From: a virus | Taxonomy: Duplodnaviria > Heunggongvirae > Uroviricota > Caudoviricetes | Virus record (IMG/VR): IMGVR_UViG_2778261530_000011 | Direction: 5' to 3' (one strand) | DNA length: 38,435 nt | Shown here: positions 9,246 through 27,058 of the stretch, one piece after another | Layout of the letters: every line of letters begins with the position of its first letter | Position numbering within the stretch: position 1 is the first letter of the stretch | The notes under the pieces: model-generated | Database searches by the model: none | The model's input: only the letters and a program-made list of their open reading frames with translations | Told to the model about the DNA's origin: nothing | Made by a program: the position numbers and the translations under genes

Positions 9246-9841
9246 TTTGCTGCTCCTCATCATATCGACCCTGCAAGGTCGGTTGGTTTCTCCACAAAAC
9301 AGAGAAGAACACCTGCGGTGGCAGCCGCCCGGATGGATTGGGTTATGAGCCCGTCGTCCGGTGATGCTCTTCTCTGTTTTGTAAAAAGAGCGGTACCAGC
9401 CGGAAGCAAGTGTACAAACTGGTACCGCCAAAGCAGTGGCTGTTGTGGTGGGGTTGTCACTCAGGCGTATGGTCAACCTGACAATCCGGTGTCCTCAACG
9501 GGGAAAGAGTAACCCAGCCATACTTACCGCCGCGCCATTTCGCGGATGACCACAACGCTGAGAGCACTTAGCCAGTTACGGCACCACACTTTGTCGCGGC
9601 TCCATAAATGCCCTCATCGTTGCACCCTGGTCTCTTCCCAGGCGTCAAACCGGATCGCCACGCTGGTTAGGCGTCTTATCAGCATCATCATTGACTTGCA
9701 CATTCCGGCTACCTGGTTTGTTTGCCCTAGCAAGGAGTGGATTGTCCCCTTTAACGTCCCCAGACCGCTAACGACGCATGTGCCATACGCCGTGTTACAA
9801 CCAAATTTTGTTTGAATCTTGCCTGCCTCATGTTTCTTTTG

Positions 9842-9867
9842 GATACATTATGTATCTCATGGGTACA
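9842..9867. promoter_or_regulatory. Candidate left operator (OL-like): overlapping palindromes GATACAT-TA-ATGTATC and TGTAT-N7-GTACA
   Basis: Dyad symmetry read directly; shares the TGTAY-N7-GTACA motif with the cI-cro intergenic sites. Confidence 0.4.
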
Positions 9868-9876
9868 TTGTCAAGT

Positions 9877-9901
9877 ATAAAAAAACCTGCCGAAGCAGGT
9901 T
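9877..9901 (-). terminator. Rho-independent terminator downstream of cI
   Basis: On the minus strand, GC stem cctgc / gcagg with 4-nt loop followed by a T-run (A-run 9879-9885 on +), 13 nt past the cI stop. Confidence 0.6.
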
Positions 9902-9913
9902 CATAAATATTGA

Positions 9914-10588
9914 TTAGGCCTTTATTGTGTATCTTCTTGGTTTTCCCGAGAAAATCACTGTACCAATTATAGAGCAATTACCGTTAATCTTAATGTAAGG
10001 CTCAGGCCAGTTTGGGTTTAATGCTTTGAGATAACGCTGTGTTCCATCTTCTATCAATCGCTTGAAGGTGGTTTCGCCTGTATCGTGCATCAATGCAATA
10101 ACGTCGTCACCGTGGCAGGCAGGGACTTCGGGATCAACAAAAATCATGTCTCCAGGGCGGTACTCATCAATCATTGAATCACCAATCACCCGCAAGATAT
10201 AAGTCATTTCGCCACAGGGTACAGGGCAGGGATACGTTTCTGCTGTGCTCAAATCAACCTCAGAATAGCCAACTTCTTTCCATGCTCCGGCCTGTACCCA
10301 TGATATGACAGGGACTAACGTTATTTGTTTGTTAGTGATTGAAACATCAGGTTTTTTTGTGATGTTCGTTGTCTGGTGTTCTTGATCAAGCCATCCGACA
10401 GGCAGGTCGAAACATTTTTCGATGTGCCGTGCCATGCTGTCACCGATATTTTTAGTAGCGCCATCCCCCATAAACCTGCTGGTTTGGGTTGGCTCGCGAT
10501 CAATCATGGTGGCAAAGGATGAATTTCCGCCAACACCATCTCTCAGTTTTCTGGCGTTAGACCGCCGGATGTCATGGATTGTTTTCAT
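9914..10588 (-). CDS. cI: CI-type prophage repressor (N-terminal HTH, C-terminal S24 LexA-like autopeptidase)
   Basis: 224-aa ORF; GDSM serine motif and downstream Lys of S24 peptidases; divergent from a Cro-like gene; ATG at 10588 has no SD, consistent with a leaderless PRM-type transcript. Confidence 0.85.
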   Translation of the reverse strand: MKTIHDIRRSNARKLRDGVGGNSSFATMIDREPTQTSRFMGDGATKNIGDSMARHIEKCFDLPVGWLDQEHQTTNITKKPDVSITNKQITLVPVISWVQAGAWKEVGYSEVDLSTAETYPCPVPCGEMTYILRVIGDSMIDEYRPGDMIFVDPEVPACHGDDVIALMHDTGETTFKRLIEDGTQRYLKALNPNWPEPYIKINGNCSIIGTVIFSGKPRRYTIKA

Positions 10589-10604
10589 AACGAAATTAAA
10601 ACCT

Positions 10605-10623
10605 TTGTACCGATAAGGTACAA
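10605..10623. promoter_or_regulatory. Operator palindrome TTGTACC-GATAA-GGTACAA in the cI-cro intergenic region
   Basis: Perfect 7-5-7 inverted repeat 17 nt upstream of the cI start; a second TGTAT-N7-GTACA site lies at 10656-10672. Confidence 0.55.
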
Positions 10624-10678
10624 GTATCTTGAAGGTTCATTTCAATCATGTAATATGTATACTGGAGGTACATATTGT

Positions 10679-10879
10679 ATGAAAGCGTATTGGGACTCTT
10701 TAACCAAAGAACAGCAGGGCGAGTTGGCCGGAAAAGTTGGCTCAACACCTGGCTACTTACGGCTGGTTTTCAATGGTTATAAAAAAGCCAGTTTTGTGCT
10801 GGCGAAAAAACTTGAGCAATGCACGTCAGGTGCAATTACGAAATCTGACTTAAGACCGGATATCTATCCGAAAGATTAA
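10679..10879 (+). CDS. cro: Cro/YdaS-like small HTH regulator
   Basis: ATG at 10679 with GGAGG SD; 66 aa; divergent from cI; the track's longer ORF from 10574 would span the operators. Confidence 0.7.
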   Translation: MKAYWDSLTKEQQGELAGKVGSTPGYLRLVFNGYKKASFVLAKKLEQCTSGAITKSDLRPDIYPKD

Positions 10880-10910
10880 CAGAACACCTTCAATTTTTAA
10901 CCACAGAACG

Positions 10911-11474
10911 ATGAGGCTAACCGTGGGTAAGTATCACTGGAAAGTAGAAAAACAGCCTGAGTGGTACGTGAAAGCTGTCAGAAAAACTATCGCAGCGTTG
11001 CCGGGTGGTTACGCTGAAGCAGCTGACTGGCTGGATGTAACAGAGAACGCATTATTTAACCGCCTTCGTGCCGATGGCGATCAGATTTTCCCGCTGGGAT
11101 GGGCAATGGTTTTACAGCGCGCGGCTGACACTCACTACATTGCGGATGCTGTCGCACAGTCTGCTGGTGGGGTGTTCGTATCGCTTCCTGAAATTGAGGA
11201 AGTAGAGAACGCCGATATAAACCAGCGCCTGCTGGAAGTCATCGAACAGATCGGGAATTACTCAAAGCAGATTCGTTCGGCAATCGAAGATGGGGTCGTG
11301 GAGCCACACGAGCAGACAGCAATTAATGATGAGTTGTATCTGTCAATTTCGAAGCTCCAAGAGCATGCAGCACTGGTCTACAAAATCTTTTGCGCTCCAG
11401 AAAAGAGTGACGCCCGCGAGTGTGCAGCTCCGGGCGTCGTGGCGTTTTGTGTCTGTGGAGAAACTAACGCATGA
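10911..11474 (+). CDS. YdaT-family / CII-like protein
   Basis: 187-aa ORF immediately after cro, as in Rac-type immunity regions; family assignment from recall. Confidence 0.5.
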   Translation: MRLTVGKYHWKVEKQPEWYVKAVRKTIAALPGGYAEAADWLDVTENALFNRLRADGDQIFPLGWAMVLQRAADTHYIADAVAQSAGGVFVSLPEIEEVENADINQRLLEVIEQIGNYSKQIRSAIEDGVVEPHEQTAINDELYLSISKLQEHAALVYKIFCAPEKSDARECAAPGVVAFCVCGETNA

Positions 11475-12307
11475 ACAGTTTAACGGCAAATAACCGTTTG
11501 TCGCAACAGCTGGTGGTCAGTGTCGCTGAACACCTGTTGTTACGGCATGAATGCAGATTACCAAATCACCTGGCTGTAAGTAACCACAGAGAACTTTACC
11601 TGACTGTGGGGGGCGAGTTGTGCGGGAACTTAACCGCTGGTTTCGTGACGGAAGAGGGCTTTATGTCCATGTTATTCGTTGGGAACCAGAAACACAGCGC
11701 GTTATCTATCTTCGCAAAGACTACCCGCATGAGTGCTTTAGTCCTTTGTGGAAATTCAGGCGTGATTTTGTTGAGTGTGAAGGACCACCAGCACATTGAT
11801 TCTGCCATTCCGGGACGTTACACTGTTCAGGCACCTTATAAAGCGGGTGACGGGATTGGCGTCCTGGAAATGTTATCGGCGATATATGACGCGCCAGCGT
11901 CTTTTTTATCGTCTGTGTCTGTGCACACCCAAATTATGGTGGGCTGGACGGGGGCACCGAAAGGTGCGCCGGTTTCCGATAACGCCGGTTACGCCAACCC
12001 CGTTCAGTTCACCACCAGCGAAATTGGCGTTTCCGGTGGTGAAGGTAATTCACTGTTATCGGAGGCTGCCATCATGGCTACTGTCCCAGCCCTCACTCGT
12101 CTGAATGATGAAGACTTACATAAACTCAGTTATGTAACAACTGCACTACGTGCTCTGCGCAAGGTAACTCTTTCGGATCCGCAGGCGCATCAGGTTTTGG
12201 TAGAAACCCTTCTTAACTTGCAGGCTGAACGTATTCGTCTGGCGGATAAGGCTAATTTTCATATTCACCGTCTCCTGAATATCAGCGGAGGGCATCGTCA
12301 TGCTTAA
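11471..12307 (+). CDS. Hypothetical protein
   Basis: 278-aa ORF; ATGA start/stop overlap with the upstream gene; no recognisable Walker motifs. Confidence 0.55.
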   Translation: MNSLTANNRLSQQLVVSVAEHLLLRHECRLPNHLAVSNHRELYLTVGGELCGNLTAGFVTEEGFMSMLFVGNQKHSALSIFAKTTRMSALVLCGNSGVILLSVKDHQHIDSAIPGRYTVQAPYKAGDGIGVLEMLSAIYDAPASFLSSVSVHTQIMVGWTGAPKGAPVSDNAGYANPVQFTTSEIGVSGGEGNSLLSEAAIMATVPALTRLNDEDLHKLSYVTTALRALRKVTLSDPQAHQVLVETLLNLQAERIRLADKANFHIHRLLNISGGHRHA

Positions 12308-25469: not shown

Positions 25470-27058
25470 AACGAACGCCTGTCCTGATTGATGTGAACGG
25501 CGTTCCGCTTCGTGAGAGTCTCAGCTACAACGGGGGCGGTGCAGGATTTGGCGGGCAAATGGCTGAGTGGTTGCCACCGGCGCAGAGTGCCGATGCGGCC
25601 CTGCTGCCCGCGTTGCGTCTGGGGAATGCCCGGGCAGATGATCTGGTGCGCAATAACGGAATAGCGGCTAATGCGGTGGCTCTGCATAAGGATCACATTG
25701 TCGGGCATATGTTTCTGATCAGCTACCGTCCGAACTGGCGCTGGCTGGGGATGCGGGAGACCGCAGCAAAAAGCTTTGTCGATGAGGTGGAGGCGGCCTG
25801 GTCGGAATACGCCGAAGGGATGTTTGGCGAGATCGACGTGGAAGGAAAACGCACGTTCACGGAATTTATCCGTGAAGGTGTGGGCGTTCATGCGTTTAAC
25901 GGCGAAATCTTTGTGCAGCCGGTCTGGGATACGGAAACCACGCAGTTATTCCGTACGCGTTTTAAAGCCGTGAGTCCGAAACGGGTGGACACGCCTGGAC
26001 ACGGTATGGGGAACCGTTTTCTGCGGGCCGGTGTGGAGGTCGATCGATATGGCCGTGCCGTCGCGTACCATATCTGTGAGGATGATTTTCCGTTCTCTGG
26101 TAGTGGACGATGGGAACGGATCCCGCGTGAACTTCCCACCGGGCGTCCGGCCATGCTGCATATTTTCGAGCCGGTGGAGGACGGGCAGACCCGTGGGGCT
26201 AATCAGTTTTACAGCGTCATGGAACGGCTGAAGATGCTCGATTCCCTGCAGGCAACACAGCTTCAGTCGGCCATAGTGAAGGCGATGTATGCAGCGACGA
26301 TTGAAAGTGAACTTGATACCGAAAAGGCCTTTGAATATATCGCCGGCGCGCCACAGGAGCAGAAGGATAATCCGCTTATTAATATTCTGGAGAAGTTCTC
26401 CAGCTGGTATGACACGAATAACGTGACACTGGGCGGTGTCAAAATTCCGCACCTTTTCCCTGGTGATGATCTGAAACTACAGACTGCGCAGGATTCAGAC
26501 AATGGATTTTCTGCGCTTGAACAGGCGCTGCTGCGGTATATCGCCGCCGGTCTTGGCGTTTCCTACGAACAGTTGTCCCGTGATTACTCGAAGGTCAGTT
26601 ACTCAAGTGCCCGCGCCTCCGCCAATGAGTCGTGGCGCTATTTTATGGGGCGGCGAAAATTTATTGCGGCCCGGCTGGCCACGCAGATGTTTTCCTGCTG
26701 GCTGGAAGAGGCACTTCTTCGGGGGATTATTCGTCCGCCACGGGCACGTTTTGATTTTTATCAGGCGCGATCAGCCTGGTCACGGGCAGAGTGGATTGGT
26801 GCCGGAAGAATGGCCATTGACGGGCTCAAGGAAGTCCAGGAATCAGTGATGCGCATTGAGGCCGGACTGAGCACGTATGAGAAAGAGCTGGCGCTGATGG
26901 GCGAGGATTATCAGGACATTTTCCGCCAGCAGGTCAGGGAATCTGCTGAGCGGCAAAAAGCCGGACTCTCACGTCCGGTGTGGATAGCGCAGGCGTATCA
27001 GCAGCAGATAGCGGAGAGTCGCAGGCCGGAAGAGGAGACAACACCACGTGAGACGTAA
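25466..27058 (+). CDS. B: Portal protein
   Basis: 530 aa lambda gpB homologue. Confidence 0.95.
   Translation: MKRTPVLIDVNGVPLRESLSYNGGGAGFGGQMAEWLPPAQSADAALLPALRLGNARADDLVRNNGIAANAVALHKDHIVGHMFLISYRPNWRWLGMRETAAKSFVDEVEAAWSEYAEGMFGEIDVEGKRTFTEFIREGVGVHAFNGEIFVQPVWDTETTQLFRTRFKAVSPKRVDTPGHGMGNRFLRAGVEVDRYGRAVAYHICEDDFPFSGSGRWERIPRELPTGRPAMLHIFEPVEDGQTRGANQFYSVMERLKMLDSLQATQLQSAIVKAMYAATIESELDTEKAFEYIAGAPQEQKDNPLINILEKFSSWYDTNNVTLGGVKIPHLFPGDDLKLQTAQDSDNGFSALEQALLRYIAAGLGVSYEQLSRDYSKVSYSSARASANESWRYFMGRRKFIAARLATQMFSCWLEEALLRGIIRPPRARFDFYQARSAWSRAEWIGAGRMAIDGLKEVQESVMRIEAGLSTYEKELALMGEDYQDIFRQQVRESAERQKAGLSRPVWIAQAYQQQIAESRRPEEETTPRET

What the first reader, a model, noticed from the sequence alone, without database searches (positions are those of the whole stretch)
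10589..10678. Immunity-region operators share a TGTAY-N7-GTACA dyad; cI appears leaderless
A perfect palindrome TTGTACC-GATAA-GGTACAA (10605-10623) sits 17 nt upstream of the cI ATG, which lacks an SD, as with lambda PRM transcripts. A related site TGTATACTGGAGGTACA (10656-10672) overlaps the cro RBS, and a third (9851-9867) lies just beyond the cI terminator where PL/OL would be expected. Together these define a candidate repressor specificity for this phage.
Basis: seen in the sequence. Interest (0 to 1): 0.4.

Follow-up and report, generated by a model that had tools for sequence, protein, structure and literature searches.

The report
Operators of e14/SfV-type phage switch
The three 17-bp dyads are real and are almost certainly the repressor-binding operators of an ordinary lambda-like genetic switch, the e14/SfV immunity type found in about a quarter of complete E. 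coli genomes; its repressor mRNA has already been shown to be leaderless in E. coli K-12.

Summary
Observation confirmed. TGTAY-N7-GTACA occurs exactly three times in 38 kb (0.13 expected by chance), at 9851-9867, 10606-10622 and 10656-10672, all around the cI gene.

Interpretation supported. The window matches phage 2H10. Its cI is 223/224 aa identical to YmfK (CohE) of the E. coli K-12 e14 prophage, and the region is about 96% identical to phage SfV. The SfV GenBank record already marks a 'putative operator region' spanning exactly sites A to C.

In 35 related immunity regions from more than 20 genera (cI DNA-binding domain 49-100% identical) the half-sites TGTACC/GGTACA stay fixed while the flanks diverge. 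Two heteroimmune relatives have no such site.

I add two degenerate sites: B (10623-10639, over the PR -35) and OL2 (9831-9847). The third dyad fills the spacer of a near-consensus PL (TTGACA-N16-CATAAT).

A TnTAAT hexamer sits at -12..-7 of the cI ATG, and almost no family member has a Shine-Dalgarno sequence there. Published differential RNA-seq places the e14 ymfK start site on the A of the ATG (leader 0).

Binding of cI or Cro to these sites has not been shown biochemically in anything I could read. Ordinary and already described; low interest.

The parts
9914..10588 (-). cI repressor gene (224 aa; orthologue of e14 ymfK/cohE and of SfV cI). It has an N-terminal DNA-binding domain and a C-terminal S24 self-cleaving domain.
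   Evidence: ORF listed. Pfam Peptidase_S24, E 1.5e-26, over aa 93-212. 223/224 aa identical to K-12 YmfK. A profile of the N-terminal domain hits PDB 5d50, the SPC32H Rep N-terminal domain, at E 3e-8.
10679..10879 (+). cro gene (66 aa; orthologue of e14 ymfT/croE; YdaS-like HTH).
   Evidence: Pfam YdaS_toxin at 25.1 bits, below the cut-off of 30. RefSeq names it ymfT, a YdaS-family HTH protein. It is co-inherited with the cI N-terminal domain in the related loci.
10606..10622 (.). Operator A (OR3-like): TGTACC-GATAA-GGTACA, the core of the 19-bp perfect palindrome 10605-10623. It is centred at -26 from the cI start site and covers the PRM -35 and spacer.
   Evidence: Present at 17-21 nt from the cI ATG in 34 of 35 related regions; the spacing is 40 nt in Amphritea.
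10623..10639 (.). Operator B (OR2-like, degenerate): AGTATC-TTGAA-GGTTCA. It abuts A, contains the PR -35, and is centred at about -43 from the cI start site.
   Evidence: My reading. The same degenerate dyad is conserved in the relatives: AGTACCTTGnnGGTTCA in most enterics, and AGAACCTTGACGGTACA in Pseudomonas and Salinicola.
10656..10672 (.). Operator C (OR1-like): TGTAT-ACTGGAG-GTACA. It runs from the last base of the PR -10 across the predicted PR +1 and contains the cro Shine-Dalgarno sequence.
   Evidence: It lies exactly 50 bp (51 in the Pseudomonas-type loci) centre to centre from A in all related loci, always with GGAG-GTACA.
10595..10600 (-). PRM -10 hexamer TTTAAT, at -12..-7 relative to the A of the cI ATG.
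   Evidence: Read. A TnTAAT hexamer is conserved at this position while the next 6 nt are not.
10618..10623 (-). PRM -35 candidate TTGTAC (17-bp spacer), lying inside the distal arm of operator A.
   Evidence: Read. (T/C)TGTAC is found at the same place in the relatives. This is an inference; the consensus scan did not score it.
10588..10588 (-). Predicted cI (PRM) transcription start: the A of the ATG, giving a leaderless mRNA.
   Evidence: The e14 ymfK start site RVS_(I)-1202156 has leader 0 nt (PMC4681348 Table S3; text). The e14 and window sequences are identical from the ATG through the -35.
10629..10656 (+). PR promoter candidate: TTGAAG (10629-10634), 16-nt spacer, TAATAT (10651-10656). 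The predicted start is about 10663, giving a leader of roughly 16 nt with the Shine-Dalgarno GGAGG at 10665-10669.
   Evidence: Read. The aligned hexamers in relatives are TTGnnG with TAATAT, CATAAT or TATAAT. It matches 8 of 12 consensus positions, below the threshold of the scan. No start-site data exist.
9883..9902 (-). cI intrinsic terminator hairpin followed by a T-run.
   Evidence: Conserved just upstream of PL in the relatives. Annotated as a terminator in the SfV and Ayreon records.
9847..9874 (-). PL promoter: TTGACA (9874-9869), 16-nt spacer, CATAAT (9852-9847).
   Evidence: Matches 11 of 12 consensus positions. cTTGACAa-OL1-TAA-T is nearly invariant in the 29 of 35 regions that have an OL1 site within 400 nt of the cI stop. 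A promoter is annotated here in the Ayreon record.
9851..9867 (.). Operator OL1: TGTATCTCATGGGTACA. It fills the PL spacer and the first 2 nt of the -10.
   Evidence: A perfect-core site lies 45-76 nt after the cI stop in 29 of 35 related regions.
9831..9847 (.). Operator OL2 (degenerate): TGTTTCTTTTGGATACA. It lies 20 bp centre to centre from OL1 and covers the end of the PL -10 to about +10.
   Evidence: One mismatch to TGTAY-N7-RTACA. The same position holds TGTACC...AGAAACA, GATACA or GTTACA in many relatives but is lost in others.

Best explanation
This is the OR/OL operator set of a lambda-like immunity region of the e14/SfV type.

How it most likely works:
- The cI repressor has an HTH-type N-terminal domain and a LexA-like self-cleaving C-terminal domain. 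As a dimer it recognises TGTACC-N5-GGTACA: two GTAC cores 11 bp apart, on one face of the helix.
- Between cI and cro there are three sites.
  - C runs from the end of the PR -10 across the PR +1 and the cro ribosome-binding site. Occupancy of C shuts off PR.
  - B is intrinsically weak and overlaps the PR -35. Occupancy of B also shuts off PR.
  - A is a perfect dyad over the -35 and spacer of the cI promoter. Occupancy of A, by cI at high concentration and/or by Cro, throttles cI transcription.
- Just past the cI terminator, OL1 fills the spacer of a near-consensus PL. The weaker OL2 covers the PL start. Together they shut off leftward early transcription.
- cI is transcribed from a TTGTAC-N17-TTTAAT promoter whose start site is the A of the ATG. 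The mRNA therefore has no leader and no Shine-Dalgarno sequence, as with lambda PRM.
- RecA-stimulated self-cleavage of cI would derepress PR and PL.

Status of each step:
- Shown: the sites, their placement on the promoters, their conservation, and their absence from heteroimmune relatives.
- Shown in the e14 orthologue: the leaderless start site.
- Inferred: which protein binds, the order of site affinities, the role of each site, and the PR and PL start sites.
For: - Exactly three perfect matches in 38 kb, all in the immunity region, against 0.13 expected.
- PL scores 11 of 12 against consensus, with the dyad in its spacer.
- The architecture is conserved in 35 regions from Escherichia, Shigella phages, Atlantibacter, Leclercia, Pantoea, Klebsiella, Kluyvera, Rahnella, Serratia, Proteus, Morganella, Edwardsiella, Symbiopectobacterium, Salinicola, Pseudomonas and Amphritea. 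Information content is near maximal at the half-sites and near zero in the N5 centre and flanks. The A-to-C distance is fixed at 50-51 bp.
- Among near-identical phages, all substitutions within the dyads fall in the central N7. The K-12 e14 copy adds one half-site change, but only at the degenerate Y position, TGTAT to TGTAC.
- The invariant REPTQ-SR segment in the cI N-terminal domain parallels the invariant half-site.
- The heteroimmune relatives H-19B and PhiR63_1 have zero sites and carry different repeats.
- The SfV GenBank record annotates a 'putative operator region' at 26377-26445, which corresponds to sites A through C.
- Leaderless cI: a TnTAAT hexamer at -12..-7, and no Shine-Dalgarno 4-mer at -15..-5 in 29 of 31 unique sequences. 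The e14 ymfK start site has leader 0, and the window and e14 promoters are identical.
- In uninduced K-12 the supplementary TSS table as held (the stored file may be cut) lists no start site in the 10-nt ranges around the predicted PR and PL starts. That fits repression.
Against: - I could find no footprint, EMSA or ChIP data for YmfK/cI or YmfT/Cro.
- Cro is co-inherited with the cI N-terminal domain in every locus. Comparative data therefore cannot say which protein, or whether both, reads the dyad.
- The best consensus site (A) lies on the cI promoter itself. This is not the lambda affinity order for cI, so the roles assigned to A, B and C are conjecture.
- B and OL2 are degenerate. OL2 is lost in several relatives.
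- The PR hexamers match only 8 of 12 consensus positions, and no PR start site has been mapped.
- Many of the related loci share ancestry, so some of the conservation is not independent.
Confidence: 0.85

Rival explanations
1. The dyads are read mainly or only by Cro (YmfT), the lytic repressor, while cI recognises some other sequence.
For: Cro family membership tracks the dyads as faithfully as the cI N-terminal domain does. The best dyad (A) lies on the cI promoter, which is where a Cro-type protein would be expected to act first.
Against: A prophage repressor must silence both PR and PL. The only repeated element common to both promoters is this dyad. No alternative repeated motif is visible in the 90-bp intergenic region. 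In characterised lambdoid switches cI and Cro share operators (established knowledge of lambda, 434 and P22).
Confidence: 0.07
2. The 19-bp palindrome at 10605-10623 works as an RNA hairpin, either a terminator or a translational element in a leadered cI transcript, rather than as a protein-binding site.
For: The consensus scan flags it as terminator-like on the minus strand: a 7-bp stem followed by AGGTTTTAAT. The RNA fold is -11.7 kcal/mol, z -2.35.
Against: It lies upstream of the mapped cI start site (leader 0). It also lies upstream of the predicted PR start, so it would not be in either main transcript. Across 33 unique sequences the arms are invariant in sequence, with no compensatory changes, and the loop is free to vary. 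The same sequence recurs at PR and PL, where no hairpin role fits.
Confidence: 0.03
3. cI is translated chiefly from a longer, leadered mRNA, for example from a CII-dependent establishment promoter to the right. Initiation would be Shine-Dalgarno-independent on an A/U-rich leader, and the leaderless transcript would be minor.
For: A CII/CP76-family gene lies just right of cro. The 16 nt before the ATG are A/U-rich. Lambda itself uses both PRE (leadered) and PRM (leaderless).
Against: In K-12 e14 the only start site reported in this region is at the ATG, and it is class I, the highest confidence. A conserved -10-like hexamer sits exactly at -12..-7. This rival can coexist with the main model during establishment of lysogeny.
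Confidence: 0.1
4. The dyads are sites for a host factor such as LexA.
For: TGTAT/ATACA resembles half of the LexA box, and e14 genes are SOS-inducible.
Against: There is no CTGT-N8-ACAG in the immunity region. The half-site spacing is 3 bp longer than in a LexA box. The motif tracks the phage repressor type and is absent from heteroimmune phages of the same host. cI carries its own S24 self-cleavage domain.
Confidence: 0.02

Closest known systems
E. coli K-12 e14 prophage immunity region (ymfK/cohE repressor, ymfT/croE)
   Same: cI is 223/224 aa identical. The cI-cro region is 127/131 nt identical, with identical PRM elements. OL is conserved. The ymfK mRNA was experimentally shown to be leaderless, with leader 0 (PMC4681348). 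From memory, unverified here: Mehta, Casjens and Krishnaswamy (BMC Microbiol 2004) reported repressor and Cro binding sites by comparison with SfV.
   Different: e14 is a defective prophage, whereas the window belongs to an intact phage (2H10). There are four point differences in OR, including TGTAT to TGTAC in site C and one base in the N5 of site A. The sequence left of OL2 is unrelated.
Shigella phage SfV cI/cro with annotated 'putative operator region' (GenBank U82619.2)
   Same: About 96% DNA identity over 9831-11000. The annotated 69-bp operator region runs from the first base of the site A palindrome to one base past site C. The terminator after cI is also annotated.
   Different: The SfV record does not annotate OL or PL. 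SfV has G for A in the N5 of site A and AT-CG for AC-TG in the N7 of site C. The operators are putative there too.
Bacteriophage lambda OR/OL with PRM, PR and PL
   Same: Shared features:
- Divergent cI and cro genes, and 17-bp dyad operators.
- A tripartite OR that overlaps two back-to-back promoters.
- A middle site near -42/-43 of the cI promoter.
- OL on PL just beyond cI.
- cI with a LexA-like self-cleaving C-terminal domain (PDB hits 1f39, 3bdn).
- A leaderless cI mRNA starting at the A of the AUG.
   Different: - The N-terminal DNA-binding domain has no sequence similarity to lambda's: it gets no Pfam HTH hit, and its closest solved relative is SPC32H Rep.
- The consensus is different (TGTACC-N5-GGTACA).
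- Site spacings are 17 and 33 bp, against 23 and 24 in lambda.
- The promoter-proximal site is centred at -26, on the -35 of PRM, rather than about -19.
- The site nearest cro sits on the PR +1 and the cro Shine-Dalgarno sequence rather than on the -10.
- Only two OL sites are visible, and OL lies about 0.75 kb from OR.
- No N gene is recognised in the SfV-like phages (PMC3851460).
The lambda coordinates are quoted from memory.
Gifsy/SPC32H Rep, DicA and RacR family of prophage repressors
   Same: A profile of the N-terminal domain matches residues 2-73 of SPC32H Rep (PDB 5d50) at E 3e-8. Lemire et al. group the Gifsy repressors with DicA and RacR (PMC3121763). dicA, racR and ymfK are the three prophage repressor genes among the five leaderless mRNAs in K-12.
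   Different: Those repressors lack the S24 domain and are inactivated by antirepressors. This cI carries an S24 self-cleavage domain. I did not compare their operator sequences.
Stx1 phage H-19B cI and its operators (Shi and Friedman 2001)
   Same: It is the nearest experimentally studied lambdoid cI by N-terminal-domain sequence, at 41% identity over aa 6-81, with the same gene order.
   Different: Its intergenic region has no TGTAY-N7-RTACA site and carries GATAAAT-type repeats instead. It is heteroimmune.

Membership tests
Lambdoid cI/Cro immunity region (genetic switch) | Divergently transcribed repressor and cro genes separated by a short regulatory region. | tested here: met
   cI is 9914-10588 (-) and cro is 10679-10879 (+), with a 90-bp gap. 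The same layout is seen in SfV, Ayreon, e14 and the related loci.
Lambdoid cI/Cro immunity region (genetic switch) | The repressor has a LexA/UmuD-type (S24) self-cleaving C-terminal domain. | tested here: met
   Pfam Peptidase_S24, E 1.5e-26, aa 93-212. PDB hits to the lambda cI C-terminal domain, UmuD' and LexA. QAG|A, GDSM and FKR motifs are visible in the sequence. Cleavage itself was not tested.
Lambdoid cI/Cro immunity region (genetic switch) | Multiple copies of one dyad-symmetric operator overlap both early promoters (PR and PL) and the repressor's own promoter. | tested here: met
   Three perfect and two degenerate copies, placed on PR, PRM and PL.
Lambdoid cI/Cro immunity region (genetic switch) | Repressor and Cro proteins physically bind the operators. 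| not testable with these tools
   No binding data were found in the searchable literature. The SfV and e14 analysis papers are not held in the library.
Lambdoid cI/Cro immunity region (genetic switch) | Operator sequence co-varies with repressor type (immunity specificity). | tested here: met
   35 of 35 regions with this N-terminal domain type carry the dyad. The two heteroimmune relatives (H-19B, PhiR63_1) carry none.
Leaderless (lambda PRM-type) repressor mRNA | The transcription start coincides with the A of the start codon. | tested here: inconclusive
   Not measurable on this phage. It was measured for e14 ymfK (leader 0, class I start site; PMC4681348), whose sequence is identical from the ATG through the -35.
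Leaderless (lambda PRM-type) repressor mRNA | A -10 element about 7 nt upstream of the ATG, and no Shine-Dalgarno sequence. | tested here: met
   TTTAAT lies at -12..-7. A TnTAAT hexamer is conserved across the family. No Shine-Dalgarno 4-mer is found at -15..-5 in 29 of 31 unique sequences.
e14/SfV homoimmune group | A near-identical repressor and identical operator half-sites. | tested here: met
   cI is 99.6% identical to YmfK, and the N-terminal domain is 98.8-100% identical to SfV, SfIV, cdtI, Ayreon and Stx2c phages. The half-sites are identical apart from Y and R wobble. Cross-immunity itself was not tested.

The most novel reading that the evidence does not exclude
The e14/SfV switch may use a control logic that differs from lambda's.

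- The strongest (perfect) operator lies on the -35 of the repressor's own promoter, so maintenance expression could be governed mainly by tight negative autoregulation.
- The weak site B at -43 would supply, at most, conditional activation.
- The PR-proximal operator is fused to the cro Shine-Dalgarno sequence.
- This fixed 50-bp A-to-C geometry is kept from Enterobacterales to Pseudomonas and Oceanospirillales.

If so, it would be a distinct and very widespread 'e14-type' switch design. It is directly testable in E. coli K-12, and it is relevant to the induction of Stx2c and Cdt phages.
Probability: 0.3. Interest if true: 0.35.

Novelty: already known. Interest (0 to 1): 0.15.

Why it matters
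This immunity type is very common. It is found in 1324 of 5426 complete E. coli genomes, including K-12's e14, and in SfV/SfIV serotype-converting phages, the Cdt-I phage and Stx2c phages.

A clean operator consensus (TGTACC-N5-GGTACA) with a five-site map has three uses:
- It helps annotate these prophages.
- It predicts which phages are homoimmune.
- It gives concrete targets for studying the SOS induction of toxin phages and of e14 genes.

It does not change our understanding of phage switches.

Tried and rejected
- **Primary papers.** I tried to read the SfV genome paper (J Bacteriol 2002) and the e14 analysis (BMC Microbiol 2004). Neither is held, so what they say about the operators rests on the GenBank annotation and on my memory.
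- **Literature searches.** Full-text searches for the motif strings, for Stx2c/SfV operator work and for YmfK binding data gave nothing relevant.
- **LexA box.** Rejected: there is no CTGT-N8-ACAG in the region.
- **RNA hairpin or terminator role for the palindrome.** Rejected: it lies upstream of both start sites, and its arms are invariant rather than covarying.
- **The overlapping TACA-N3-TGTA arrangements** (9844-9854 and 10669-10679). I treat these as a by-product of adjacent sites. At OL they are the OL2-TAA-OL1 junction that forms the PL -10. At OR the match is to the cro start region and is not conserved.
- **Looser motif searches.** Searches with 2 mismatches, or with the GTAY-N7-RTAC core alone, are not distinguishable from chance outside the immunity region.
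- **Pseudomonas, Salinicola and Amphritea relatives.** They show no OL site within 400 nt of the cI stop. I did not pursue where their OL lies.
- **Structure prediction of the N-terminal domain.** Not run.

Full report
**What is in the sequence**

The cI ORF runs 9914-10588 on the minus strand (224 aa). cro runs 10679-10879 on the plus strand (66 aa). A CII/CP76-family ORF follows at 10911-11474, and an Ash-family ORF at 11471-12307.

- TTGTACC-GATAA-GGTACAA at 10605-10623. Its nearest base is 17 nt from the A of the cI ATG.
- TGTATACTGGAGGTACA at 10656-10672. It contains the cro Shine-Dalgarno GGAGG at 10665-10669.
- TGTATCTCATGGGTACA at 9851-9867. It lies just beyond the cI terminator hairpin at 9883-9902.

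TGTAYN7GTACA occurs nowhere else in the 38,435-bp window. The expectation from shuffles is 0.13, and no shuffle reached the observed count. Looser versions of the motif are not enriched outside the immunity region.

**Where the sequence comes from**

The region 9700-11000 is 100% identical to Escherichia phage 2H10. It is 96-98% identical to phages Ayreon, cdtI, SfV, SfIV and a series of Stx2c-converting phages.

In complete E. coli genomes the segment 9825-10700 is present in 1324 of 5426 genomes. There it is annotated ymfK (LexA-family protein) and ymfT (YdaS-family HTH), which are the immunity genes of the e14 prophage. The K-12 copy is 95% identical. The window's cI is 223/224 aa identical to K-12 YmfK. 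The cI-cro intergenic region differs from e14 at 4 of 131 positions.

The SfV GenBank record (U82619.2) carries a feature 'putative operator region' at 26377-26445. Mapped onto the window, it runs from the first base of the 19-bp palindrome to one base past site C. The OR dyads were therefore noticed and deposited in 2002. I could not read the SfV or e14 analysis papers.

**Promoters**

On the minus strand the consensus scan finds TTGACA (9874-9869), a 16-nt spacer and CATAAT (9852-9847). This matches 11 of 12 consensus positions. The third dyad occupies that spacer and the first two bases of the -10, so it is OL1 on PL. The Ayreon record annotates a promoter at the same place.

For PR I read TTGAAG (10629-10634), a 16-nt spacer and TAATAT (10651-10656). 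This matches 8 of 12 positions, below the scan's threshold. Site C starts on the last base of this -10 and runs across the predicted +1 (about 10663) and the cro Shine-Dalgarno sequence.

For cI, TTTAAT lies at -12..-7 relative to the A of the ATG (plus-strand 10595-10600). TTGTAC lies 17 bp upstream of it, inside the distal arm of the palindrome (10618-10623).

**Comparative test**

A tblastn search with the cI N-terminal domain found phages with 33-63% identical domains, in Edwardsiella, Pseudomonas, Ralstonia and others. It also found H-19B at 41%.

A scan of one genome per species with an alignment of the N-terminal domain returned 29 loci from more than 20 genera, at 49-100% identity.

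I compared 35 regions in all: the window, SfV, Ayreon, EPP-1, two Pseudomonas phages and the 29 loci. They give 33 unique OR sequences. The layout recurs throughout:
- The cI ATG is followed by 17 nt (17-21; 40 in Amphritea) and then site A.
- Site A is TGTACC-N5-GGTACA.
- A degenerate site B abuts A and contains the PR -35. It reads AGTAYCTTGnnGGTTCA in most enterics and AGAACCTTGACGGTACA in Pseudomonas and Salinicola.
- The PR -10 follows, reading TAATAT, CATAAT or TATAAT.
- Site C is TGTAY-nnn-GGAG-GTACA, followed by 2-6 nt and the cro ATG.
- The A-to-C centre distance is 50 bp in all loci, or 51 in the Pseudomonas-type ones.

Column information is near maximal at the half-sites and near zero in the N5 centre and in most flanking positions.

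Downstream of cI, 29 of the 35 regions have the following layout:
- a terminator;
- cTTGACAa;
- OL1 (TGTACC-N5-GRTACA);
- TAA;
- a second site beginning TGTACC, whose right half is degenerate or lost.

The window's OL2 is 9831-9847, with one mismatch.

Among the near-identical phages, all substitutions within the dyads fall in the central N7. The K-12 e14 copy adds one half-site change, at the degenerate Y position only (TGTAT to TGTAC).

Two heteroimmune relatives have no site at all and carry different repeats. These are H-19B and PhiR63_1, which shares the flanking genes but has a different cI and cro.

The segment REPTQ-SR, in the presumed recognition region of the cI N-terminal domain, is nearly invariant across the family.

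**Leaderless cI**

I anchored the 31 unique upstream sequences on the cI ATG. This gave three results:
- A TnTAAT hexamer, often preceded by TG, sits at -12..-7.
- The six bases between the hexamer and the ATG carry no information.
- A Shine-Dalgarno 4-mer within -15..-5 occurs only in the two Edwardsiella sequences.

The ATG is the first possible start codon of the ORF.

Romero et al. 2014 mapped start sites in E. coli K-12 by differential RNA-seq and found only five leaderless mRNAs. One of them was ymfK. Their Table S3 gives the start site RVS_(I)-1202156 for a gene starting at 1202156, leader 0 (PMC4681348). The start-site table as held lists nothing in the 10-nt ranges around the positions predicted for PR and PL in uninduced cells.

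The window and e14 are identical from the ATG through the -35. The leaderless reading is therefore as well supported as it can be without an experiment on this phage.

**The proteins**

- The cI C-terminal half is a Peptidase_S24 domain (E 1.5e-26). It resembles the lambda cI C-terminal domain, UmuD' and LexA.
- The cI N-terminal domain has no Pfam hit. A 20-sequence profile of it matches residues 2-73 of the Salmonella phage SPC32H repressor (PDB 5d50) at E 3e-8. It matches a phage 'CI repressor' N-terminal-domain structure (PDB 7nkv) more weakly.
- Cro is a YdaS-like HTH protein. It is co-inherited with the cI N-terminal domain in every locus, at 31-100% identity. Comparison alone therefore cannot tell which protein reads the dyad. 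By analogy with characterised lambdoid switches, both do.

**Mechanism proposed, and its limits**

- cI dimers bind two GTAC cores 11 bp apart.
- C and B silence PR, and OL1 and OL2 silence PL.
- A is centred at -26 of the cI promoter. It limits cI synthesis, either by cI at high concentration or by Cro early in lytic growth.
- B is centred near -43 of the cI promoter, about where lambda's OR2 sits.
- SOS-triggered self-cleavage relieves repression. This fits the SOS and oxidative-stress induction of e14 genes.

The geometry differs from lambda in three ways:
- The site spacings are 17 and 33 bp.
- The best dyad lies on the cI promoter.
- The PR-proximal operator is fused to the cro ribosome-binding site.

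None of the binding steps has been shown.

**Rivals considered**

- Cro-only sites.
- An RNA hairpin (fold -11.7 kcal/mol, z -2.35). It lies upstream of both start sites, and its arms are invariant rather than covarying.
- A leadered cI mRNA from an establishment promoter. This may coexist with the main model.
- LexA sites. There is no LexA box in the region.

**Verdict**

The feature is an ordinary lambdoid operator set that is already annotated as putative in SfV. Its leaderless repressor mRNA is already published for the 99.6%-identical e14 gene.

This analysis adds the following:
- the refined consensus;
- sites B and OL2;
- the placement of the third dyad on PL;
- the breadth of conservation.

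Interest is low.

Noticed in passing
window 11831-12019 (+): Rfam finds an isrK Hfq-binding RNA (11831-11907; 55.4 bits against a gathering score of 50) and a C4 antisense RNA (11932-12019; 82.8 bits against 45). Both lie inside the long ORF 11471-12307, which is Ash-family and whose SfV homologue orf37 is annotated 'immunity region'. This suggests a second, RNA-based control layer, like P1 immI or Gifsy IsrK, about 1.2 kb right of the switch.
   Followed up: no
window about 9831 (left edge of OL2): Homology to SfV, SfIV and e14 stops immediately left of OL2. Megablast coverage starts at query position 132, which is window 9831, and the alignments diverge there. The immunity module therefore appears to have a mosaic boundary at the operator edge. 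There also seems to be a leader of more than 350 nt between PL and the next sizeable leftward ORF.
   Followed up: partly
L004 and L005 (Pseudomonas phages CF3a, LESphi3); L030, L031, L034, L035: The Pseudomonas, Salinicola and Amphritea relatives keep OR sites A, B and C. They have no OL-type site within 400 nt of the cI stop. In LESphi3, a BrnT-toxin gene and a transcriptional-repressor gene follow cI on the same strand.
   Followed up: no
window 9914-10588 (cI) and the literature: Three of the five leaderless mRNAs in E. coli K-12 are the prophage repressor genes dicA, racR and ymfK (PMC4681348). The YmfK N-terminal domain is homologous to the SPC32H/Gifsy-type Rep, a family that Lemire et al. 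group with DicA and RacR. Leaderless expression may be a family trait of this DNA-binding domain.
   Followed up: partly
L002 (phage Ayreon, MF807953.1): Ayreon's host is recorded as E. coli K12, yet its repressor N-terminal domain is 100% identical to that of K-12's own e14 repressor. Plating should then require an e14-free K-12 derivative, or some way of escaping immunity.
   Followed up: no
L007 (E. coli SCPM-O-B-8794) and L018: In these loci the cro reading frame is altered: a 200-aa fusion in L007 and a 24-aa truncation in L018. The operators are intact. These are probably decayed prophages that keep the repressor side of the switch.
   Followed up: no
window 10787-10803 (-) and 10749-10766 (+): Two terminator-like hairpins with T-runs lie inside the cro coding region, one on each strand. 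They may be chance matches. The minus-strand one could matter for any antisense, establishment-type transcript heading toward cI.
   Followed up: no
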